Shown here: piece by piece, positions 1-7,919 of the stretch
Numbering within the stretch: the stretch's first letter is position 1
How the letters are laid out: the number at the start of each line of letters is the position of its first letter
Origin: a virus
Lineage: Duplodnaviria; Heunggongvirae; Uroviricota; Caudoviricetes
DNA: 7,919 nt
Virus record (IMG/VR): IMGVR_UViG_3300029095_000201
Span: 1-7,919 of that record
Strand: one strand, 5' to 3'
Notes under the pieces: model-generated
Database searches by the model: none
Seen by the model: the letters and a program-made list of their open reading frames with translations, nothing else
Told to the model about the DNA's origin: nothing
Translations under genes and position numbers: made by a program

Positions 1-377
1 CGAAAACAGCCATCAATGAAGCCCTGCGCAGAATGAAAAAAGCGGGAATAGAGAAAGCTGAGCTGGAAGCGTTTTTGCGAGAGATGATCAACGGCAAGCA
101 AAAGAGCTGGCTGGCGCATTGTACTGATGCAGAGGCGTTATGTATTGATCGAGTCATAAGTGAGGTGCTGGCAGAGCATCCTGGATTGATTAGTGTCCTC
201 CGGCAACGGTATGAAGGACGGGGGATGACTAAGCGCAAAATGGCTGAATTGCTAAATGATGCACATCCTGAGTGGTGTTTTAGCACATGCGAAAAGCGAA
301 TTGCTAATTGGTTGGCTGTTGCTGAGTATGCCCTATATATTCCCATGCGAGAATCATTTGCTCAAAAAATAGCTTGA
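1..377 (+). CDS. Putative late-gene antiterminator (Q-like), C-terminal portion; 5' end truncated by the window edge
   Basis: The frame of the listed ORF 33-377 stays open back to base 3, so the gene begins upstream of the window. The call rests on position (immediately upstream of a terminator-containing leader and the lysis cassette), not on recognised sequence; I do not recognise the Q family from this C-terminus. Confidence 0.45.
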   Translation, partial: KTAINEALRRMKKAGIEKAELEAFLREMINGKQKSWLAHCTDAEALCIDRVISEVLAEHPGLISVLRQRYEGRGMTKRKMAELLNDAHPEWCFSTCEKRIANWLAVAEYALYIPMRESFAQKIA

Positions 378-402
378 TTTTTTACGCATAAACTGCTTCA
401 AT
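374..402 (+). promoter_or_regulatory. Candidate late promoter (PR-prime-like): -35 TTGATT (374-379), 17-bp spacer, -10 TTCAAT (397-402)
   Basis: Hexamers read directly from the sequence, overlapping the stop codon of the upstream ORF. The -10 is a weak match (4/6). Placement fits the lambdoid arrangement where the late promoter lies just after Q and before a terminator. Confidence 0.2.
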
Positions 403-460
403 TCCGGTATGCTTCGCAAAGCTGTATCGCGAGGCGAACCAAGCGCATGAACTTTACCAG

Positions 461-490
461 AACCCGCCATTGAGCGGGTTTTGTTGTTTC
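461..490 (+). terminator. Rho-independent terminator (tR-prime-like) downstream of the Q-like gene
   Basis: 7-bp stem AACCCGC (461-467) / GCGGGTT (474-480), 6-nt loop CATTGA, followed by the T-rich tract TTGTTGTTTC (481-490). The reverse strand lacks a U-tract, so it is + strand only. Confidence 0.6.
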
Positions 491-561
491 TGGTACTGGT
501 GAACCTGATGTTTCATTTCTGGAGCGCGATTCCTGGCGGAATACCTAGAATCGAGACATTC

Positions 562-570
562 TGGTAAAAT
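562..570 (+). promoter_or_regulatory. Candidate extended -10 promoter element (TGgTAAAAT) for the downstream cargo gene
   Basis: TG at 562-563 and TAAAAT at 565-570, about 30 nt upstream of the start at 599, downstream of the 461-490 terminator. No good -35, which is tolerated with extended -10 elements. Sequence-only prediction. Confidence 0.3.
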
Positions 571-598
571 TGTTTTCAGTACAGGATGTGGAGGTGAG

Positions 599-1168
599 AT
601 GAGAGAACTACCTAAAGATTATTTTTTAGGAGTAGATGATGAGCTCGTCGATTATCTTGAAAAACAAGGGGAAGAGACGATACGAGAGATTCATCTTTCT
701 AACAAAACCAATGTTGAGAATGGATACAAACTTCTGAACATTCAGATTGTTGGAATTGGTTCATCTTTTTTATTGCTGACACAGAAAACTAATTTCGATT
801 TTCTCACCGCCGGAATTACCACATTTACATTACTATGGACATGGTGCGCCATTTACTTGGTATGTACTGGTTTATCTGTGAAGGTTAGGGGCCTGATCAA
901 TGCCCCTCCTGATCATATATATCATGAAAAATATAAGGATATGGAGCCCTCGAGCTTTAAAATATTCGCTGATGCAGGATATTTAGGACCTGATAAGTTA
1001 TTGCCGCTTATACGAAGGTATCGCCTTGTTGACTTGAGTGATACAGCAAGAGAGTTACTGTTGGAAAATGAGAAAATCCGCACGAGTCTCGATAAAGCAA
1101 GGATGTATACCATCCTTGCTCCGGTAGCGGCGATGTTTATCTCGGCTGTTTTTTTATATGTTCAATGA
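599..1168 (+). CDS. Hypothetical integral membrane protein, 189 aa, cargo (moron) gene between Q and the holin
   Basis: ATG at 599 preceded by a strong SD GGAGG (590-594, 4-nt spacer). The translation has three hydrophobic helix-length segments (IQIVGIGSSFLLL; FLTAGITTFTLLWTWCAIYLVCTGL; C-terminal MYTILAPVAAMFISAVFLYV) with a charged N-terminus and a roughly 80-aa charged segment between helices 2 and 3. Visibly AT-rich relative to the flanking lysis genes. No family recognised. Confidence 0.6.
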   Translation: MRELPKDYFLGVDDELVDYLEKQGEETIREIHLSNKTNVENGYKLLNIQIVGIGSSFLLLTQKTNFDFLTAGITTFTLLWTWCAIYLVCTGLSVKVRGLINAPPDHIYHEKYKDMEPSSFKIFADAGYLGPDKLLPLIRRYRLVDLSDTARELLLENEKIRTSLDKARMYTILAPVAAMFISAVFLYVQ

Positions 1169-1298
1169 CTGAGTCGGCAGAATCTCCAACAAAAACACGA
1201 CGTGTAGCAAAGTCTGTAGTACTTTGTGTTGGAGTTGGTTTTGGTGCCACGGGTTGCTGAGGTTTATTTTCACCTTGTGGTTTGTTTTTTTCAGACAT
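1137..1298 (-). CDS. Small hypothetical protein, 53 aa (MSEKNKPQGENKPQQPVAPKPTPTQSTTDFATRRVFVGDSADSVIEHIKKQPR), convergent with and overlapping the 3' end of the 599-1168 gene
   Basis: Internal ATG (complement of 1296-1298) within the listed 130-aa minus ORF, preceded by a strong SD AAGAGGA (complement of 1303-1309, about 4-nt spacer). Pro/Gln-rich hydrophilic N-terminus, no hydrophobic segment. Overlaps the + strand gene by 32 bp (1137-1168). No family recognised; could be a chance ORF in a 3' UTR. Confidence 0.4.
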   Translation of the reverse strand: MSEKNKPQGENKPQQPVAPKPTPTQSTTDFATRRVFVGDSADSVIEHIKKQPR

Positions 1299-1392
1299 AA
1301 AAATCCTCTTTGTTTGAATTGTTACTTTTGGCGATTTAACGATATCAAACACGAGTATATACCGCCAGAAGCTTAATCTGGCACTCCATCTG

Positions 1393-1420
1393 GCCCCGGC
1401 ATGTCCCGGGGCTTTTTCGT
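1393..1420 (+). terminator. Rho-independent terminator between the cargo locus and the holin gene
   Basis: GC-rich 7-bp stem GCCCCGG (1393-1399) / CCGGGGC (1406-1412), 6-nt loop CATGTC, followed by TTTTT (1413-1417). The reverse strand has no U-tract after the stem. Confidence 0.55.
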
Positions 1421-1515
1421 TGTTAGGCTCTGGAAACATCCTCGACTTCTTGTTAGCAAGCCTGAGAGCCTGAATCTTACACTTAGCACCATCCGAACTC
1501 TCGGAGGTGAGGCTT

Positions 1516-1857
1516 ATGAAAATGCACAATGCCCCTCATTCCTGGCCTGACTTACTGGAACTCTTACAAAGTTGGTGGCGTGGAGATACGCCGCTGGGTG
1601 CAGTGGTTATGTCAATTATTATGGCTGGTTTGCGCATTGCCTATTTTGGCGGTGGCGGCGGCTGGAAACGAAAAACGCTTGAGATTCTGCTTTGTGGTGC
1701 TCTGACGCTGACCTTTGCATCCGCGCTTGAGTATGTCGGATGGCCTAAATCACTTTCTGTTGCCATTGGTGGTGGGGTGGGGCTGATTGGTGTTGATGCT
1801 ATTCGTGGTGCGGCAATGAGGGTCATCGGTAACAAGTTCGGTGCCCATAAGGAGTAA
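1516..1857 (+). CDS. S: Holin, class I (three predicted TM segments), lambda S-like with a Met-Lys-Met dual-start motif
   Basis: Sits immediately upstream of the endolysin gene. SD GGAGG at 1503-1507. Begins MKMHN..., i.e. two in-frame Met codons separated by Lys as in the lambda S107/S105 holin/antiholin pair (from memory). Three hydrophobic segments and a charged C-terminal tail. I prefer ATG 1516 over the GTG 1507 of the ORF track because GTG 1507 overlaps the SD. Confidence 0.8.
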   Translation: MKMHNAPHSWPDLLELLQSWWRGDTPLGAVVMSIIMAGLRIAYFGGGGGWKRKTLEILLCGALTLTFASALEYVGWPKSLSVAIGGGVGLIGVDAIRGAAMRVIGNKFGAHKE

Positions 1858-1860
1858 TTA

Positions 1861-2337
1861 ATGCAGACACTTAATTCCCAGCGTAAAGCTTTCCTTGATA
1901 TGGTGGCATGGTCAGAAGGAACAGATAACGGACGGCAGAAAACCAGAAATCACGGTTATGATGTTATTGTCGGTGGCGAACTGTTCACTGATTACTCCGA
2001 TCACCCCCGCAAACTTGTCACGCTAAATCCGAAACTCAAATCAACAGCCGCTGGACGTTACCAGCTTCTTTCACGCTGGTGGGATGCCTACCGCAAGCAA
2101 CTTGGCCTGAAAGATTTTTCTCCAGAAAGTCAGGATGCTGTAGCGCTGCAGCAGATTAAAGAGCGTGGCGCTTTGCCGATGATTGATCGCGGTGATATCC
2201 GTCAGGCTATCGACCGTTGCAGCAATATATGGGCTTCACTGCCGGGCGCTGGTTATGGTCAGTTCGAGCATAAGGCTGACAGTCTGATTGCAAAATTCAA
2301 AGAAGCTGGCGGAACGGTCAGAGAGATTGAGGTATGA
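1861..2337 (+). CDS. R: Endolysin R (lambda-type lytic transglycosylase), 158 aa
   Basis: The translation matches lambda R as I recall it almost residue for residue ([48 protein letters not shown]...). SD AAGGAG at 1848-1853. Stop overlaps the Rz start in an ATGA junction (2334-2337), as in lambda. Confidence 0.9.
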
Positions 2338-2793
2338 GCAGAGTAACCGCGATTATCTCCGCTCTGGTTATCTGCATCGTCGTCTGCCTGTCATGGGGTG
2401 TTAATCATTACCGTGATAACGCCATCGCCTACAAAGAACAGCGCGACAAAAATGCCAGAGAACTGAAGCTGGCGAACGCGGCAATTACTGACATGCAGAT
2501 GCGTCAGCGTGATGTTGCTGCGCTCGATGCAAAATACACGAAGGAGTTAGCTGATGCGAAAGCTGAAAATGATGCTCTGCGTGATGATGTTGCCGCTGGT
2601 CGTCGTCGGTTGCACATCAAAGCAGTCTGTNNNNNNNNNNNCCACCACCGCCTCCGGCGTGGATAATGCAGCCTCCCCCCGACTGGCAGACACCGCTGAA
2701 CGGGATTATTTCACCCTCCGGGAACGACTGGTAATGATGCAGGCCCAACTTGAAGGTGCTCAGCAATACATAACCGAGCAGTGTTTAAAGTAA
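2334..2793 (+). CDS. Rz: Spanin Rz (inner-membrane i-spanin); reading frame broken only by the N-run at 2631-2641
   Basis: N-terminal 99 aa ([21 protein letters not shown]...[10 protein letters not shown]) match lambda Rz as recalled. After the N-run the Rz C-terminus ([29 protein letters not shown]...EQCLK) continues in a frame shifted by +1, ending at TAA 2791-2793. The shift is explained if the N-run stands for a different number of bases, not by a real frameshift. Confidence 0.85.
2554..2734 (+). CDS. Rz1: Spanin Rz1 (outer-membrane lipoprotein o-spanin), embedded in the +1 frame of Rz
   Basis: Starts [20 protein letters not shown] with a lipobox (VVGC) and signal peptide. After the N-run the proline-rich C-terminus [29 protein letters not shown] reads in the matching shifted frame, ending at TAA 2732-2734. 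The embedded arrangement is the established lambda Rz/Rz1 architecture. Confidence 0.8.
2631..2641. other. Run of 11 ambiguous bases (N) inside the Rz/Rz1 overlap, i.e. a masked or unresolved stretch
   Basis: Directly visible. Both Rz and Rz1 shift by the same +1 across it, so the true length is congruent to 1 modulo 3 (10, 13, 16...). Comparison with lambda Rz as recalled (AVC-QSVREA-TTASG) suggests 16 nt. Confidence 0.95.
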
Positions 2794-2930
2794 AATCTTA
2801 ACTACAATATGATTCATTTTGATGATTGTTTCATAAGGAACAGTGAAGTAAGATCTAAGAGGAGTTAAATTTTATACAGTATAATCATAATATTGCAGCA
2901 AGGTGGTTATAATTGAAAGAATATTTAGAT

Positions 2931-4388
2931 ATGAATACATCTCATGTAAGAGTTGTTACTCATATGTGTGGGTTCCTGGTTTGGCTCTATAGTCTTTCAA
3001 TGTTGCCACCAATGGTTGTAGCATTGTTTTATAAAGAAAAAAGCCTGTTCGTTTTCTTTATAACTTTCGTTATATTTTTTTGCATTGGTGGCGGAGCGTG
3101 GTATACAACTAAGAAATCTGGCATTCAATTACGTACCCGTGATGGGTTTATTATAATTGTAATGTTTTGGATTTTGTTTTCTGTTATTAGTGCATTCCCT
3201 TTATGGATTGACTCAGAACTTAATTTAACGTTCATTGATGCTCTGTTTGAAGGGGTTTCTGGAATAACAACAACAGGAGCAACTGTAATTGATGATGTTA
3301 GTTCATTACCTCGGGCATATTTGTACTATCGGTCACAGTTAAATTTTATAGGTGGTTTAGGAGTTATTGTTCTGGCGGTTGCTGTATTGCCATTATTGGG
3401 TATTGGTGGTGCAAAGCTTTATCAGTCAGAAATGCCGGGGCCATTTAAGGATGACAAACTCACTCCCCGCCTGGCCGATACGTCACGGACACTGTGGATA
3501 ACTTATTCTTTATTAGGTATTGCTTGTATTGTCTGTTATAGACTTGCAGGAATGCCTTTGTTTGATGCTATTTGTCACGGGATTTCCACAGTTTCGCTTG
3601 GTGGTTTCTCAACTCATAGCGAGAGTATCGGATATTTTAATAACTATTTGGTTGAGCTGGTGGCTGGTTCTTTTTCCCTGCTATCGGCTTTCAACTTCAC
3701 TCTTTGGTATATTGTTATTAGCAGGAAAACGATAAAACCTTTAATCAGAGATATTGAACTTCGTTTCTTTCTGTTAATAGCCTTAGGGGTGATCATTGTT
3801 ACCTCTTTCCAGGTCTGGCATATAGGTATGTATGACTTGCATGGAAGTTTTATTCATTCGTTTTTTCTTGCCAGCTCCATGCTCACTGATAATGGTTTAG
3901 CTACGCAGGATTATGCAAGTTGGCCCACGCACACGATAGTGTTTTTGCTGTTGTCAAGTTTCTTTGGGGGATGTATAGGTTCAACTTGTGGTGGAATTAA
4001 GTCACTTCGATTTCTTATACTTTTCAAACAAAGCAAACACGAGATAAATCAGCTTTCTCATCCCAGAGCGTTGTTGAGTGTAAATGTAGGAGGGAAGATA
4101 GTTACAGATCGTGTAATGAGGTCTGTATGGAGTTTCTTTTTTCTTTATACTCTCTTCACGGTGTTTTTTATACTGGTGTTAAATGGTATGGGATATGATT
4201 TTCTTACATCATTTGCAACAGTGGCTGCATGTATTAATAATATGGGATTAGGTTTTGGGGCTACTGCATCGTCATTCGGAGTGCTTAATGACATTGCAAA
4301 ATGTTTAATGTGCATAGCTATGATTCTTGGTCGCCTTGAAATTTATCCTGTTATTATATTGTTTTCAGGTTTTTTTTGGCGCTCCTAA
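2931..4388 (+). CDS. trkG: Trk-system potassium uptake protein TrkG (TrkH/KtrB family membrane subunit), 485 aa from ATG 2931
   Basis: Multi-pass membrane protein with TrkH-type motifs recognisable against E. coli TrkH as recalled (GITTTGATV, EMPGPFKDDKLTPRLADTSRTLW, GGCIGSTCGGIK, MILGRLEIYPVIILFSGFFWRS). Strongly AT-rich, as described for trkG of the Rac prophage. An alternative TTG start at 2913 has the better SD (AAGGTGG at 2900-2906); ATG 2931 gives the 485-aa length I recall for K-12 TrkG. Confidence 0.9.
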   Translation: MNTSHVRVVTHMCGFLVWLYSLSMLPPMVVALFYKEKSLFVFFITFVIFFCIGGGAWYTTKKSGIQLRTRDGFIIIVMFWILFSVISAFPLWIDSELNLTFIDALFEGVSGITTTGATVIDDVSSLPRAYLYYRSQLNFIGGLGVIVLAVAVLPLLGIGGAKLYQSEMPGPFKDDKLTPRLADTSRTLWITYSLLGIACIVCYRLAGMPLFDAICHGISTVSLGGFSTHSESIGYFNNYLVELVAGSFSLLSAFNFTLWYIVISRKTIKPLIRDIELRFFLLIALGVIIVTSFQVWHIGMYDLHGSFIHSFFLASSMLTDNGLATQDYASWPTHTIVFLLLSSFFGGCIGSTCGGIKSLRFLILFKQSKHEINQLSHPRALLSVNVGGKIVTDRVMRSVWSFFFLYTLFTVFFILVLNGMGYDFLTSFATVAACINNMGLGFGATASSFGVLNDIAKCLMCIAMILGRLEIYPVIILFSGFFWRS

Positions 4389-4474
4389 TATATGGCTGAT
4401 TTATAATTGTGAGTTTAATATTATGTTGACTCACTCATTGATCCAATACCTAACTTTACCAGCAACACCTCCGT

Positions 4475-4510
4475 CCCCAGTAGCACTGGCTGCTGGGGTG
4501 CGTTTTATTC
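4475..4510 (+). terminator. Rho-independent terminator downstream of trkG
   Basis: 10-bp stem CCCCAGTAGC (4475-4484) / GCTGCTGGGG (4489-4498) with one G-U pair, 4-nt loop ACTG, followed by TGCGTTTTATTC. Confidence 0.5.
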
Positions 4511-4525
4511 ATAAAGCAAGGCTGT

Positions 4526-5317
4526 ATGAGCGAGAAATTAAAGATAGTCTATCGCCCATTACAAGAATTGTCACCGTATGCGCACAACGCCAGGACGCAC
4601 AGTACTGAGCAGGTGGCACAACTGGTAGAAAGTATTAAGCAATTCGGCTGGACTAATCCGGTGCTGATTGACGAAAAGGGCGAAATTATTGCGGGTCACG
4701 GTCGTGTTATGGCGGCTGAAATGCTCAAAATGGATTCTGTTCCGGTCATTGTTCTGTCTGGCCTGACGGATGAGCAGAAAAAGGCGTACCGCCTGGCAGA
4801 TAATCGCCTGCCGATGAATGCTGGCTGGGATGAAGATCTGTTGCGGATGGAGCTGTCGGACCTAATCAATGCTGATTTTGATGTCTCCCTGACAGGCTTC
4901 ATCCCGACAGAAATTGATGAACTGTTGACGGATGTTTTGCCCGGTACAGGAAATGAGGAGGAGCCGTATACGACGAAAATTGATACGCCTGTTTATGAGC
5001 CGTCGGGCGGTAAACCGGATATCAGTGAACTGTACGACGATACGAAAACTCAGGAGCTGATCAGCCGGATACGTTCGGCGTCCCTTGAGCCTGATATTGA
5101 GAAATTCCTCCTGTGTGCGGCAGAACGTCACACGGTGTTTAATTTCAGCAGAATTGCGGACTATTACGCTCACGCCCCCTCTGAAATTCAGTGTTTTTTC
5201 GAGGAGTCGGCGCTGGTGATCATTGATTATCAGCAGGCTATTGAAAATGGATTTGTCCGGATGACGCAGCGCATGGTGGAGATCATGCATGGTGGTGAGG
5301 AGGAGGAATATGCGTGA
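4526..5317 (+). CDS. ParB-like nuclease-domain (ParB/sulfiredoxin superfamily) protein, 263 aa, with an uncharacterised acidic C-terminal half
   Basis: N-terminal 100 aa carry the ParB N-domain signature (IVYRPLQELSPYAHNARTHS...; LIDEKGEIIAGHGRVMAA with the GxGR box). Likely the intact counterpart of the short Rac ynaK gene, but I cannot verify identity. The C-terminal 140 aa end in EEEEYA with no recognised domain. Stop overlaps the next gene start by 8 nt. Confidence 0.7.
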   Translation: MSEKLKIVYRPLQELSPYAHNARTHSTEQVAQLVESIKQFGWTNPVLIDEKGEIIAGHGRVMAAEMLKMDSVPVIVLSGLTDEQKKAYRLADNRLPMNAGWDEDLLRMELSDLINADFDVSLTGFIPTEIDELLTDVLPGTGNEEEPYTTKIDTPVYEPSGGKPDISELYDDTKTQELISRIRSASLEPDIEKFLLCAAERHTVFNFSRIADYYAHAPSEIQCFFEESALVIIDYQQAIENGFVRMTQRMVEIMHGGEEEEYA

Positions 5318-6242
5318 TGATTTTTGCGCCTTTATTCTGACTCACGGGCGACCGGACAAAGTTCTGACTTACCGGACGTTGCGTCGTGCTGGCTATACCG
5401 GGAAAATTTTTATCGTTGTTGATGATGAAGATAAGACACGGCATCAGTACATGGCTGAATTTGGTGAACAGGTGCTGGTGTTTTCCAAAGCCGATATCGC
5501 CAGTCGTTTTGACGAAGCCGATAATTTCTGTGACCGCCGCTCAATTTTTTACGCCCGTAATGCCTGTTTCGACCTGGCAAAACTGGTCGGGTGTAAATAC
5601 TTCATTCAGCTCGATGATGATTATCACGAGTTCCAGTTTCGGGTGGATCGCAACTATGACCAGGCCTATTTTCCGATAAGGAAACTGGATGCGATCCTTT
5701 CTGAAATGCTGGCGTACTACGAATCAATACCTGCTCTTTCCATCGCTATGTCGCAGGGCGGGGATTTTCTTGGTGACAATGGCGGCCATGCTTCGTGGGT
5801 GAAACGCAAGGCAATGAACAGCTTTATCTGTTCGGTTGATCGACCGTTCTCATTCATGGGGCGCATTAACGAGGATGTGAATACGTACACGAATCTCGGT
5901 CGCTGTGGTGAATTGTTTATGACGATCGGTGCTGTCCAGTTAGGGCAGAAACAGACGCAGAAAAACAGCGGCGGAATGACCGAGCTGTATCTGGATTCCG
6001 GAACCTACGTTAAAAGTTTTTACTCCGTCATGTATGCGCCGTCGTGCGTAAAAATCTCACTGATGGGTGCCAGCCATAAACGCATTCACCATCAGGTCAC
6101 CTGGAACAACGCTGCAGTAAAAATCCTTCACGAAAAATACAGGAAGAAGACACCCTGCATATCAATGGGGGTGACAAATGATTCCGTATTCGAAAGTCGA
6201 GTCTCTGGCAGCGTGCCGGATGACTGCACAACAAATCGCTGA
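5310..6242 (+). CDS. Hypothetical protein with GT-A-like features (putative nucleotide-sugar-dependent glycosyltransferase), 310 aa from ATG 5310
   Basis: Start ATG 5310 chosen over the track's 5289 because of the SD run GAGGAGGAGG (5297-5306). The N-terminus has a strand-loop-helix-strand pattern (CAFILTHGRPD ... KIFIVVDDEDKT) and a later acidic triplet (YFIQLDDDY) resembling the GT-A DxD metal/sugar-nucleotide site. No hydrophobic membrane segments. Fold assignment is inference from motifs only. Confidence 0.5.
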   Translation: MRDDFCAFILTHGRPDKVLTYRTLRRAGYTGKIFIVVDDEDKTRHQYMAEFGEQVLVFSKADIASRFDEADNFCDRRSIFYARNACFDLAKLVGCKYFIQLDDDYHEFQFRVDRNYDQAYFPIRKLDAILSEMLAYYESIPALSIAMSQGGDFLGDNGGHASWVKRKAMNSFICSVDRPFSFMGRINEDVNTYTNLGRCGELFMTIGAVQLGQKQTQKNSGGMTELYLDSGTYVKSFYSVMYAPSCVKISLMGASHKRIHHQVTWNNAAVKILHEKYRKKTPCISMGVTNDSVFESRVSGSVPDDCTTNR

Positions 6243-7113
6243 CGTTCTGGATGTTGATCTGAACCGACTGAAAGAAAATCGGGAAGCAATGACAGATTTT
6301 TATGCGGCTATCCGGTTTGATAAATATGACGGTAGCGCAACAACTTTTCTTGGTGATGCGTATATTGATACACAAACGCTTGAAATTAATATGACAGGCG
6401 GTGCTGCCTCAAGGATTACAGCGAGAGTCAGAAAGGACGAAGCTACCGGATGGATTTTTGCAGAGGCAACAATTCAGGCAATTGATGGGGAGTTAAAAAT
6501 AGGCTCTCAGATACAGTATTCTCCTAAGCAGAGCGGGGCAACCGTATCTGGTGACTATATTTATCTGGCCACCCCACAAGTAGAAGATGGGCCTTGTGTA
6601 TCATCTTTTATTATATCAGGAGCGACGGCGGCGACCCGCGCAAGCGATATAGTTACAGTTCCAATTAAGAATAATCTTTATAATCTTCCTTTTACGGTTC
6701 TTTGTGAGGTACATAAGAACTGGTATAAAACGCCAAATGCAGCGCCACGTGTTTTTGATACCGGCGGTCATCAAACCGGAGCGGCTATTATTCTTGGCTT
6801 CGGTCGTTCAACAGATTACGACGGATTTCCTTATTGCGATATTGGAGGAGCTAACAGACGGGTAAACGAAAACGCATCGCTTGAAAAAATGGTTATGGGG
6901 ATGCGTGTAAAGTCAGATCAGTCTACGTGCTCAGTAAGTAACGGGCGTATATCCAGCGAAACAAAAACCACATGGTCCTGTATTCAGAACACCGCAATTA
7001 TCCGTATTGGAGGCCAGACTACAGCCGGGTTACGTCATTTATTTGGTCATGTCAGGAATTTCAGAATATGGCACAAGGCATTGACTGATGCTCAGGTGGG
7101 GGAGTCAATCTAA
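6178..7113 (+). CDS. Hypothetical protein, 311 aa; C-terminal region resembles a concanavalin-A/LamG-like jelly-roll (lectin-like) domain
   Basis: ATG 6178 preceded by G-rich SD GGGGGTGA (6167-6174). The C-terminal motif IRIGGQTTAGLRHLFGHVRNFRIWHKALTDAQV resembles the terminal strands of LamG/ConA-like domains. The start overlaps the upstream gene by 65 nt; alternative in-frame ATGs at 6220 and 6289 lack good SDs. Domain call is weak inference. Confidence 0.45.
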   Translation: MIPYSKVESLAACRMTAQQIADVLDVDLNRLKENREAMTDFYAAIRFDKYDGSATTFLGDAYIDTQTLEINMTGGAASRITARVRKDEATGWIFAEATIQAIDGELKIGSQIQYSPKQSGATVSGDYIYLATPQVEDGPCVSSFIISGATAATRASDIVTVPIKNNLYNLPFTVLCEVHKNWYKTPNAAPRVFDTGGHQTGAAIILGFGRSTDYDGFPYCDIGGANRRVNENASLEKMVMGMRVKSDQSTCSVSNGRISSETKTTWSCIQNTAIIRIGGQTTAGLRHLFGHVRNFRIWHKALTDAQVGESI

Positions 7114-7394
7114 TGAAAGATTTAACACTCAAATTTGCCGACAGGGCCGACTTTTCGGCCTTTATGGAGAGTATTGGCTATTATGATGACGAGTCGATGC
7201 AGGATGATATTCTTATTGACGTGATAGGTAACGTGTACAAAGAAACCGGAGAACTGACTGAAGATGGCGAACCGGTATGTGTTAAGGAAGACGGATATTT
7301 TGTAAACGTGCGCATCATTAATGATGCAAAAAAATCGTCAATATTCGATAAATACGCGGTTGTTGTTGAGCATCAACTTCGTGGCTGGATGTGA
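7113..7394 (+). CDS. Small acidic hypothetical protein, 93 aa
   Basis: ATG overlaps the upstream stop (TAATG at 7111-7115). SD GGGGGAG at 7098-7104. No recognised family. Confidence 0.45.
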   Translation: MKDLTLKFADRADFSAFMESIGYYDDESMQDDILIDVIGNVYKETGELTEDGEPVCVKEDGYFVNVRIINDAKKSSIFDKYAVVVEHQLRGWM

Positions 7395-7403
7395 GGGAGA
7401 CAA

Positions 7404-7919
7404 ATGGCTACATCGACAGTAATTCCAGGAGATATCACCACGCTAAAGGGAGATGTCAGTAAAACTAAGGAAGATATTTCCTCAATTAACGGAAAAGTAT
7501 CAACGCTTCAGACTGATATGACCAGTGCAAAGCAGGATATCAGCACCAGATACACAAAAACTGAAGTTGATAATAAGCTGAAAAACAAAGTGGAAGTGAA
7601 CGATCTGGAAAGTGGTCGTTATGGCGGAGATTTTTATCCACTGACAGGTCGTGAAGCGTTTTATTTATGGAATTTGGCCACGACTACAGCGGCGGCAAAC
7701 CTTTATCTTAATCCTGACCCCGCAATTTCGTCTGTGCTGCGGTCAACATCGTCTATCCGCTATAAACATTCAGTAGAGACAATAGATTCAAAGCACGCTG
7801 ATCTCATTTTCAGGATGCGCCCTGTGTGGTACAGGTCACAATGCGAAAATGACAGGCGTGACTGGGGATTCTACGGATTGATTGCCGAGGAAGTAGGAGA
7901 AATTGCCCCTCAGTTTGTA
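7404..7919 (+). CDS. Coiled-coil fibre-like protein with a C-terminal intramolecular chaperone (peptidase S74-like) domain; 3' end truncated by the window edge
   Basis: ATG 7404 with SD GGGAGA (7395-7400). I translated the frame by hand to base 7919 with no stop. The N-terminal 60 aa have a heptad-like pattern (DITTLKGDVSKTKEDISSINGKVSTLQTDMTSAKQDIS). From about 7750 the sequence (SSIRYKHSVETIDSKHADLIFRMRPVWY...DWGFYGLIAEEVGEIAPQFV) resembles the S-x-R-x-K autocleavage site and start of the chaperone domain of phage tail fibres and tailspikes, as recalled. Confidence 0.6.
   Translation, partial: MATSTVIPGDITTLKGDVSKTKEDISSINGKVSTLQTDMTSAKQDISTRYTKTEVDNKLKNKVEVNDLESGRYGGDFYPLTGREAFYLWNLATTTAAANLYLNPDPAISSVLRSTSSIRYKHSVETIDSKHADLIFRMRPVWYRSQCENDRRDWGFYGLIAEEVGEIAPQFV

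What the first reader, a model, noticed from the sequence alone, without database searches (positions are those of the whole stretch)
7404..7919. Unusually short fibre protein with a peptidase S74-like chaperone directly after a coiled coil
The C-terminal chaperone-like region (from the SSIRYK site onward) starts only about 115 residues into the protein. Well-studied tail fibres and tailspikes carrying this domain have long fibrous or beta-helical regions ahead of it. After autocleavage the mature product would be a very short coiled-coil stub, more like a minimal fibre or adaptor than a typical receptor-binding fibre. The gene is truncated by the window edge, so the full chaperone domain cannot be assessed.
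Basis: partly seen in the sequence, partly recalled or inferred. Interest (0 to 1): 0.4.

Follow-up and report, generated by a model that had tools for sequence, protein, structure and literature searches.

The report
Minimal tail-fibre subunit with self-cleaving chaperone
The region is the first 516 bases of a common 705-base E. coli prophage gene for a very short tail-fibre piece (docking motif, coiled coil, small tip, self-cleaving S74 folding domain); it is real and intact but belongs to an already catalogued, widespread gene family, so it is largely ordinary.

Summary
An ORF starts at ATG 7404 and runs off the window end. Its residues 116-172 match Pfam Peptidase_S74 above threshold.

Near-identical DNA occurs in 1069 of 5426 complete E. 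coli genomes. There the gene is 705 nt (234 aa), so the chaperone domain is complete (residues 116-234). Thr115, Ser116 and Lys121 are invariant in 60 homologues. They line up with Thr1263, Ser1264 and Lys1269 of the T5 fibre. An AlphaFold model (chaperone part pLDDT above 89) finds the solved MyRF, endosialidase and GA-1 chaperone domains as best PDB matches.

The mature part would be 115 aa:
- a conserved N-terminal motif (MATxTVIPxDIT);
- a heptad coiled coil whose length varies only by whole heptads;
- a ~53-aa tip also found at the end of long Stf fibres.

So the chaperone does not follow the coiled coil directly.

The gene is the third gene of a cassette: lectin-ended Stf/lateral fibre, then a ~92-aa protein, then a fibre with this N-terminal motif. 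Lambdoid, T1-like, T5-like, Nonagvirus and Dhillonvirus phages share the cassette. Complete third-gene alleles seen are 225 to 574 aa, and this is a minimal one.

The most likely role is a distal subunit or cap of a two-part side tail fibre. This is a new member of a known kind, of low to moderate interest.

The parts
7404..7919 (+). First 516 nt (codons 1-172) of a 705-nt gene for a 234-aa S74-domain tail-fibre protein. The last 62 codons lie beyond the window.
   Evidence: ORF and translation. 97% identical to the 234-aa P0001. Full length read from L001 9505-10209. dN/dS 0.15 over 36 alleles.
7395..7399 (+). Shine-Dalgarno GGGAG, 4 nt upstream of the ATG.
   Evidence: Read directly from the sequence.
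7404..7448 (+). Conserved N-terminal motif MATSTVIPGDITTLK, the proposed docking adaptor. It is also the allele-swap boundary: DNA homology to the 345/346-aa alleles ends at 7447.
   Evidence: The same motif opens gene 3 in lambdoid, T1-like, T5-like, Nonagvirus and Dhillonvirus phages. PHROG 4563 positions 1-47 match residues 1-49. blastn breakpoints.
7434..7589 (+). Heptad coiled coil, residues about 11-62.
   Evidence: a/d register I11 L14 V18 T21 I25 I28 V32 L35 M39 A42 I46. Length differences between homologues are 35, 42, 49 or 70 aa, all multiples of 7 in 12/12. AF2 helices 11-48 and 52-62. Weak match to the P22 gp26 trimeric needle.
7590..7748 (+). Tip module before the cleavage site, residues 63-115. 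It is non-helical and ends in Thr115.
   Evidence: Residues ~49-115 plus the chaperone are 55-61% identical to the C-terminal ends of long Stf-type fibres: P0057 735 aa, P0058 958 aa, P0063 1243 aa. Low pLDDT in the monomer model.
7749..7766 (+). Catalytic motif SSIRYK: Ser116 (7749-7751) as nucleophile, Lys121 (7764-7766) as base. Predicted cleavage is between Thr115 and Ser116.
   Evidence: Invariant in A1 and A4. Pfam profile position 1 aligns to residue 116. T5 pb1 has Thr1263/Ser1264/Lys1269 (PMC4690869).
7749..7919 (+). Intramolecular chaperone (Peptidase S74) domain, residues 116-172 of 116-234.
   Evidence: Pfam. AF2 pLDDT 89-98 over residues 120-234. Foldseek best matches are 7dc3, 3gw6 and 3gud, and S74/ICA proteins in BFVD.
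7113..7394 (+). Conserved 93-aa cassette partner (PHROG 1361), function unknown.
   Evidence: Directly upstream in 77/80 related viral loci. Homologues in 186 phage records, in nearly every listed record lying under or beside a tail-fibre/tail protein gene.
6309..7113 (+). 3' remnant of the Stf/lateral tail fibre gene, encoding the ConA/laminin-G-like lectin end. It is fused in frame to a terminase-small-subunit fragment (ORF 6178-7113).
   Evidence: PHROG 1419 positions 519-793 and PHROG 309 positions 145-188. NCBIfam GTA_spike_fiber and Pfam Laminin_G_3, both below their cut-offs. Homology to intact prophages starts at 6309. 99% identical to the 2G7b Stf C-terminus.

Best explanation
The ORF encodes the minimal allele of the third gene of a modular side/lateral tail-fibre cassette.

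The cassette is: (1) a proximal fibre (Stf/LTF) ending in a lectin-like domain, (2) a ~92-aa accessory protein, (3) a second fibre protein.

The 234-aa precursor has four parts:
- a ~15-residue conserved N-terminal motif (MATxTVIPxDITxLK);
- a 5-7-heptad coiled coil;
- a ~53-residue tip;
- a 119-residue S74 intramolecular chaperone.

Inferred mechanism:
1. The C-terminal chaperone trimerises first and templates folding of the tip and coiled coil.
2. Ser116, activated by Lys121, cuts the Thr115-Ser116 bond, and the chaperone leaves.
3. The remaining trimer of 115-residue chains, roughly 10 nm by my own estimate, docks by its N-terminal motif onto the proximal Stf fibre as a distal tip or cap.

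Shown here: the gene structure, the S74 identity, the dyad, the predicted fold, the heptad-preserving length variation, cassette conservation and purifying selection.

Inferred, not shown: trimerisation, cleavage, and docking to Stf.

In this window the prophage has lost all head and tail genes. The gene therefore cannot serve its own virion here. It is most likely an intact leftover that superinfecting phages could pick up by recombination.
For: S74 identity:
- Pfam hit above cut-off.
- T115, S116 and K121 invariant, matching T5 Thr1263/Ser1264/Lys1269.
- Sequence match to the DT57C LtfA C-terminus, E 2.8e-7.
- AF2 model pLDDT 80.6 overall and above 89 for the chaperone part.
- Best PDB folds are MyRF ICA (E 5e-5, prob 1.0), endoNF 3gw6 and GA-1 3gud.

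Complete 234-aa gene.

Coiled coil: clean a/d register, and indels only in multiples of 7.

Cassette:
- Same gene order in lambdoid phages.
- Also in Drexlerviridae, Tequintavirus and Nonagvirus, and in a Dhillonvirus by reading its sequence.
- The 93-aa gene lies directly upstream in 77/80 viral loci.

N-terminal motif:
- Shared by gene-3 alleles of 225, 333, 345-348 and 574 aa.
- The 574-aa allele is IrisVonRoten Gp24. The BASEL authors predict with AlphaFold-Multimer that it attaches to the proximal fibre Gp22, which has a galectin-like end (PMC11990801).

Tip plus chaperone: 55-61% identical to the ends of long Stf fibres.

Purifying selection: dN/dS 0.18 for the mature part and 0.12 for the chaperone.

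Allele exchange occurs exactly after the N-terminal motif, at 7447.
Against: - No multimer prediction or experiment was possible, so trimerisation, cleavage and docking are untested.
- The tip (63-115) is low-confidence in the monomer model.
- Gene 3 is dispensable for the cassette. mEp460_4F5 has Stf, the 92-aa gene and the downstream membrane protein but no gene 3.
- The Stf C-terminal alignment shows no block specific to phages that carry gene 3.
- The 234-aa allele stays 92-98% identical while partner Stf lectin ends vary from 35 to 100%. This fits a constant cap, but equally a role unrelated to Stf.
- The BASEL genome annotation calls the T1-like orthologue a 'putative lateral tail fiber chaperone'.
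Confidence: 0.62

Rival explanations
1. Trans-acting assembly chaperone or transient cap. The protein is not a lasting virion component. It docks on the lectin-ended Stf through its coiled coil, helps it trimerise or masks it, and is then released.
For: Orthologues are annotated 'putative lateral tail fiber chaperone' or 'chaperone of endosialidase'. More than half of the protein is chaperone domain. The Stf partner has no S74 domain or Tfa of its own in Pfam. The allele is nearly constant beside very diverse Stf ends.
Against: Solved S74 domains act in cis on the polypeptide upstream of them (PMC4690869). Longer alleles with the same N-terminus carry receptor-binding-type domains and are modelled as fibres. 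mEp460_4F5 keeps Stf and the 92-aa gene without gene 3. The mature half is itself under purifying selection. The 'chaperone' names simply echo the Pfam domain title.
Confidence: 0.15
2. An independent short fibre or whisker that attaches directly to another virion site (tail tip, collar or head) rather than to Stf.
For: The Stf C-terminus is a lectin domain to its very last residue, with no obvious docking block. PHROG matches of parts of the protein include 'minor head protein' families. The coiled coil resembles the P22 needle and Bacillus phage minor head proteins.
Against: The gene lies directly after the 93-aa gene in 77/80 related viral loci. The same order, behind the lectin-ended fibre gene, holds in every annotated locus inspected across five phage lineages with very different tails. 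In T5-like phages, second LTF proteins are held through the first (DT57C LtfB via LtfA, PMC10713586). The head-protein matches cover only the generic coiled coil or the chaperone.
Confidence: 0.12
3. A decaying fragment of a once longer fibre gene, open by chance in a defective prophage.
For: The window's prophage has lost all morphogenesis genes, and the upstream Stf is a truncated fusion. The region from ~residue 49 to the end equals the C-terminus of long fibres.
Against: The family has its own start codon and SD, and sizes of 221-245 aa with two longer coiled-coil variants of 268-269 aa; shorter entries look like fragments. Near-identical DNA is present in 1069 genomes, and orthologues occur in about 45 lytic T1-like phage genomes. 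dN/dS is 0.15. Indels preserve the heptad phase.
Confidence: 0.03

Closest known systems
Escherichia phage IrisVonRoten (Bas32, Tequintavirus) Gp22-Gp23-Gp24 lateral tail fibre
   Same: Same three-gene order. Gp23 is a homologue of the window's 93-aa protein (38% identity). Gp22 ends in the same lectin-type domain. Gp24 starts MVTKTVIPTDITKLK and ends in an S74 chaperone. Gp24 is predicted to attach to Gp22 (PMC11990801).
   Different: Gp24 is 574 aa, with two receptor-binding domains ('T-shaped'). The window protein has only ~53 aa between the coiled coil and the cleavage site.
Drexlerviridae gene-3 orthologues, e.g. KarlJaspers bas06_0035 (225 aa) and Jahat_MG145 'chaperone of endosialidase' (231 aa)
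   Same: True orthologues, 56-63% identical over the full length. Same architecture and same cassette. Jahat_MG145 is the best BFVD structural match.
   Different: The coiled coil is shorter by one to two heptads. They sit in lytic T1-like phages rather than a lambdoid prophage. No function has been tested for either.
Phage T5 L-shaped tail fibre pb1 (PDB 4UW7/4UW8)
   Same: C-terminal intramolecular chaperone with Thr-Ser...Lys at the cleavage site. The chaperone is removed to expose the fibre tip (PMC4690869).
   Different: Mature pb1 is 1263 aa, with a ~290-aa bullet-shaped receptor-binding tip. Here the whole mature chain is 115 aa. pb1 binds the tail directly through its own N-terminus.
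DT57C LtfA/LtfB branched lateral tail fibre (PDB 8HQZ chain d = LtfA)
   Same: Best PDB sequence match (E 2.8e-7), over both the YTKTEVD coiled-coil repeats and the chaperone. It is a precedent for a second fibre protein carried on the first.
   Different: LtfA is 1076 aa. The matching C-terminal part is not modelled in the structure. LtfB was not compared here.
Endosialidase endoNF (K1F) and GA-1 neck appendage C-terminal chaperone domains (3GW6, 3GUD); MyRF ICA domain (7DC3)
   Same: Same predicted fold. These define the Peptidase S74 / ICA family.
   Different: Low sequence identity (11-26% in the structural alignment). Their upstream cargo is a triple beta-helix or enzyme, or a transcription factor in MyRF, not a short coiled coil.
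Long lambdoid Stf proteins with the same end module (e.g. P0057, 735 aa)
   Same: Residues ~49-234 are 55-61% identical to their C-terminal ~185 aa: YTKTEV coil, tip and chaperone.
   Different: There the module is fused in cis to a full Stf with a phage_tail_N anchor. Here it is a separate gene with its own N-terminal motif.

Membership tests
Peptidase S74 / intramolecular chaperone auto-processing domain (Pfam PF13884) | Profile match above the curated threshold | tested here: met
   27.4 bits against a cut-off of 22, E 4.3e-6, residues 116-172 to profile positions 1-57 of 58, even with the gene truncated. PF13884 is precomputed for the full-length P0001.
Peptidase S74 / intramolecular chaperone auto-processing domain (Pfam PF13884) | Ser-x4-Lys catalytic dyad at the N-terminal edge of the domain | tested here: met
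   S116 and K121 are invariant in 19/19 and 60/60 sequences, and T115 is invariant before the cut. They correspond to T5 Thr1263/Ser1264/Lys1269 and DT57C LtfA GT-SGIEYK.
Peptidase S74 / intramolecular chaperone auto-processing domain (Pfam PF13884) | Complete C-terminal domain of about 120 aa ending in a long helix | tested here: met
   Not visible in the window, but DNA 98.6% identical continues to residue 234. Domain length is 119 aa against a median of 122 in 133 relatives. Terminal helix spans 198-233.
Peptidase S74 / intramolecular chaperone auto-processing domain (Pfam PF13884) | Fold of the solved chaperone domains | tested here: met
   AF2 pLDDT 89-98 over residues 120-234. The top ten Foldseek PDB matches are all chains of 7dc3, 3gw6 or 3gud. 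This is a predicted monomer, not a solved structure.
Peptidase S74 / intramolecular chaperone auto-processing domain (Pfam PF13884) | Trimerisation-dependent autoproteolytic release | not testable with these tools
   Needs expression of wild type against S116A and K121A, or a multimer model. Only monomer prediction was available.
Distal subunit of the two-part lateral tail fibre (IrisVonRoten Gp24 type) | Encoded directly after the ~92-aa gene that follows a lectin-ended Stf/LTF gene | tested here: met
   Window 6309-7113, 7113-7394 and 7404 onward. 77/80 related loci. Five phage lineages.
Distal subunit of the two-part lateral tail fibre (IrisVonRoten Gp24 type) | Conserved N-terminal motif M[AV]TxTxIPxDI[TK] | tested here: met
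   MATSTVIPGDIT here. The same motif occurs in Gp24, HMD-P4, 2G7b, PhiR63_1, DP051, JenP2, rolling and KarlJaspers.
Distal subunit of the two-part lateral tail fibre (IrisVonRoten Gp24 type) | A globular receptor-binding domain between the N-terminal region and the chaperone | tested here: not met
   Only ~53 residues lie between the coiled coil and Ser116. The 333-348-aa alleles have ~110-150 extra residues and Gp24 ~340. The protein is therefore filed as a minimal variant, not a typical member.
Distal subunit of the two-part lateral tail fibre (IrisVonRoten Gp24 type) | Physical attachment to the proximal fibre | not testable with these tools
   For Gp24 this rests on the BASEL authors' AlphaFold-Multimer model. 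No multimer tool was available here.
Trans-acting tail fibre assembly proteins (lambda Tfa / Mu gpU type) | Sequence membership of a Tfa family | tested here: not met
   No Tfa-type family among the Pfam, NCBIfam or PHROG matches of the protein.

The most novel reading that the evidence does not exclude
The minimal allele is a separately encoded S74 chaperone module that works in trans. Its short coiled coil plugs into the lectin-ended Stf trimer and nucleates or caps it, and the S74 domain then cuts itself off. That would leave a constant plug beside highly variable lectin domains. It would be the first S74 intramolecular chaperone shown to serve a different polypeptide. It would also explain why one near-invariant 234-aa allele sits next to Stf ends that are only 35-100% identical.
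Probability: 0.1. Interest if true: 0.6.

Novelty: new member of a known kind. Interest (0 to 1): 0.25.

Why it matters
This is a compact natural example of the smallest cargo an S74 chaperone is found with in this family: a coiled coil plus about 50 residues. It could be useful for engineering trimeric display scaffolds or chimeric Stf fibres.

The conserved 15-residue N-terminal motif marks a plug-in point shared by tail-fibre cassettes of at least five coliphage groups. That is practical knowledge for host-range engineering and for annotation, where these genes are now variously called 'hypothetical', 'chaperone' or 'tail fiber'.

It does not open a new kind of biology.

Tried and rejected
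- The first AlphaFold run, with the 19-sequence family alignment, gave pLDDT 47 and was unusable. A 60-sequence alignment that added distant S74 relatives fixed the chaperone half, but not the tip.
- NCBIfam has no family for the protein.
- PDB sequence searches gave only DT57C LtfA, whose matching part is not modelled, and a weak MyRF hit.
- I looked for a Stf block specific to gene-3-bearing phages as a docking site. None was found: mEp460_4F5, which lacks gene 3, has the same conserved C-terminal motif.
- Literature searches for lambdoid Stf with an intramolecular chaperone found nothing specific to this gene. The 'In situ targeted mutagenesis' preprint was irrelevant.
- The pseudogene/remnant reading was rejected on conservation, dN/dS and presence in lytic phages.
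- I assumed E. coli DP051 would give the downstream sequence, because it carries the window's unique deletion junction. It carries the 346-aa allele instead, so the window is a recombinant of the two.

Full report
**1. What is at 7404-7919**

An ATG at 7404 opens a frame that stays open to the last base of the window, 172 codons. A GGGAG Shine-Dalgarno lies at 7395-7399, and the ATG sits 9 nt after the stop of the preceding 93-aa gene. SSIRYK is residues 116-121. Pfam Peptidase_S74 (PF13884) matches residues 116-172 to profile positions 1-57 of 58, at 27.4 bits against a cut-off of 22.

**2. The missing 3' end**

A 1020-nt query covering the gene and its upstream flank (window 6900-7919) matches near-identical DNA in 1069 of 5426 complete E. 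coli genomes. In E. coli EC21GDE043, which is 98.6% identical over window 6309-7918, the gene is 705 nt and encodes 234 aa. It is annotated 'tail fiber domain-containing protein'. The same 234-aa gene occurs in strain LWY24 and in phages IdasGreatGrand and PhiR49_1. The S74 domain is thus complete, at residues 116-234. That is 119 aa, against a median of 122 aa in 133 related cluster representatives.

**3. Is it really an S74 intramolecular chaperone?**

- Sequence: phmmer against 1.84 billion representatives gave 3506 hits at E<=1e-3 and 1609 at E<=1e-10. The 150 hits listed align over the same C-terminal region.
- Best PDB sequence match: the C-terminus of DT57C LtfA, E 2.8e-7, with GT-SGIEYK aligned to ST-SSIRYK.
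- Catalytic residues: T115, S116 and K121 are invariant in 19 family members and in 60 sequences that include distant relatives. In T5 pb1 the mature chain ends at Thr1263, Ser1264 is the catalytic serine, and Lys1269 is the partner residue (PMC4690869). The spacing is the same.
- Fold: with a 60-sequence alignment AlphaFold2 gave mean pLDDT 80.6, and 89-98 over residues 120-234.
- Fold comparison: all ten best Foldseek PDB matches are chains of three solved chaperone domains. These are MyRF ICA 7dc3 (E 5e-5, probability 1.0), endosialidase 3gw6 and GA-1 3gud. In BFVD the matches with E<=1e-4 that carry a name are mostly S74/ICA or tail-fibre proteins, led by the T1-like orthologue.
- Autocleavage itself could not be tested.

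**4. Anatomy of the mature part (residues 1-115)**

Residues 11-46 have a clean a/d heptad register. Across 12 homologues, the distance from the N-terminal IPxDIT motif to the DNKLK motif is 35, 42, 49 or 70 residues, always a multiple of seven. That is what a continuous coiled coil under selection should show. AlphaFold predicts helices at 11-48 and 52-62.

Residues 63-115 are not helical and are low-confidence in the monomer model. So the chaperone does not follow the coiled coil directly.

Residues ~49-234 are 55-61% identical to the C-terminal ends of long Stf-type fibres of 588-1243 aa. The tip plus chaperone is therefore a module that also exists fused to full-length fibres. Only the first ~45 residues are specific to the short protein.

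**5. Genomic context: a three-gene fibre cassette**

Upstream in the window lie a 93-aa gene (7113-7394, PHROG 1361) and the 3' part of an Stf gene (from 6309, PHROG 1419). The Stf end is a ConA/laminin-G-like lectin domain.

The order Stf/LTF, then a ~92-aa gene, then a gene starting M[AV]TxTxIPxDIT recurs in five phage groups:
- lambdoid phages and prophages;
- Drexlerviridae;
- Tequintavirus HMD-P4 and IrisVonRoten;
- Nonagvirus JenP2;
- Dhillonvirus 'rolling'.

The complete third-gene alleles seen are 225-234, 333, 345-348 and 574 aa. All of these end in an S74 domain. The Dhillonvirus copy runs off the end of its record, so its length and C-terminus were not seen.

The 574-aa version is IrisVonRoten Gp24. 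The BASEL authors model it as a T-shaped distal fibre attached to the proximal fibre Gp22, whose C-terminus carries a galectin-like domain (PMC11990801). The window protein is the minimal allele of this gene. It keeps the N-terminal motif, the coiled coil and the chaperone, but lacks the intervening receptor-binding-type domains.

Further points on the cassette:
- In 80 related viral contigs the 93-aa gene lies directly upstream in 77.
- A 95-aa membrane protein follows in 47 of 56 contigs with enough sequence.
- Gene 3 is optional. mEp460_4F5 goes straight from the 92-aa gene to the membrane protein.
- An rV5-like phage has the small gene behind its fibre but no motif-bearing gene after it.

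**6. Evolution**

Across 36 distinct 705-nt alleles, dN/dS is 0.15 overall, 0.18 for the mature part and 0.12 for the chaperone. The gene is therefore maintained, not decaying.

The 234-aa allele stays 92-98% identical while the neighbouring Stf lectin ends range from 35 to 100% identity to the window's.

The window matches E. coli DP051 at 99.5% from base 1 to base 7447, which is 15 codons into the gene. The two then diverge, because DP051 carries the 346-aa allele. The DNA encoding the conserved N-terminal motif is thus also the recombination joint for swapping alleles.

**7. State of the prophage in the window**

ORF 6178-7113 begins with a terminase-small-subunit fragment (PHROG 309) fused to the Stf C-terminus. 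Everything from terminase to mid-Stf is deleted. This junction occurs in only one of 5426 complete genomes. Here the fibre genes cannot serve a virion of their own prophage.

**8. Most likely mechanism**

The S74 domain trimerises and templates the upstream tip and coiled coil. Ser116/Lys121 then cut after Thr115, and the chaperone is released. The 115-residue trimer docks by its N-terminal motif onto the lectin-ended Stf as a distal tip or cap.

- Shown: items 1-6 above.
- Inferred: trimerisation, cleavage and docking.

Rivals:
- A trans-acting chaperone or cap, as the BASEL genome annotation suggests. This goes against the cis action of the solved S74 domains and against mEp460.
- An independent fibre attached elsewhere, which goes against the strict synteny.
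- A decaying remnant, which is effectively excluded.

**9. Comparison and novelty**

This is a member of the S74/ICA family by every testable criterion. It is a positional and N-terminal homologue of IrisVonRoten Gp24-type distal fibre subunits, but without their receptor-binding domain.

The family is abundant and already annotated, as 'tail fiber domain-containing protein', 'chaperone of endosialidase' or 'putative lateral tail fiber chaperone'. I found no experimental work on the minimal allele.

Short mature parts are uncommon but not unique: 8 of 133 related clusters have 130 aa or fewer before the cleavage site. Some of those may be truncated gene calls.

It is a new member of a known kind, of low to moderate interest.

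Noticed in passing
window 6178-6309 (ORF 6178-7113): In-frame fusion of a terminase-small-subunit fragment (PHROG 309 positions 145-188) to the C-terminal lectin part of Stf. The prophage has lost the whole head and tail morphogenesis region. This exact junction is present in only 1 of 5426 complete E. coli genomes (strain DP051).
   Followed up: partly
window 7447 / L090 9548: The window is 99.5% identical to E. coli DP051 over bases 1-7447, then diverges. DP051 has the 346-aa gene-3 allele and the window the 234-aa allele. The switch falls right after the 15 conserved N-terminal codons.
   Followed up: yes
window 2632-2643: A run of 12 N inside the Rz-like lysis gene (ORF 2334-2666 reads XXXX). 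This is an assembly or masking gap, so the ORF end reported there is not reliable.
   Followed up: no
window 2913-4388: trkG potassium transporter gene inside the prophage, between the lysis cassette and the ParB-like gene, as in the K-12 Rac prophage (Rac comparison from my own knowledge). It is preceded by an AT-rich stretch at 2790-2910.
   Followed up: no
window 4526-6242: A ParB-N-domain protein (263 aa, PHROG 620) overlaps a TET-associated glycosyltransferase (PF20691, E 4e-35; PHROG 842 'beta-glucosyl-HMC-alpha-glucosyltransferase'). This may be a DNA-modification module in a lambdoid prophage. In DP051 the ParB-like gene (ynaK) is annotated as a partial pseudogene.
   Followed up: no
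window 599-1168: A 189-aa predicted membrane protein (PHROG 11870, unknown function) sits between the Q-like antiterminator region and the holin, a typical moron position.
   Followed up: no
L001 10220-10507 (just beyond the window end): A conserved 95-aa hydrophobic protein (PHROG 1443) follows the S74 gene in 47 of 56 related loci. It follows the 92-aa gene directly in mEp460_4F5, which lacks the S74 gene. Function unknown.
   Followed up: partly
phage database hits of the 93-aa protein: Homologues of the 93-aa cassette protein appear in records labelled Campylobacter phage (e.g. C15, 135 kb; 8 such records in all) and Listeria phage (two short records of 1.8-7.5 kb). They are at the same identity as rV5-like and T5-like coliphages, which suggests mislabelled or contaminant records.
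   Followed up: no
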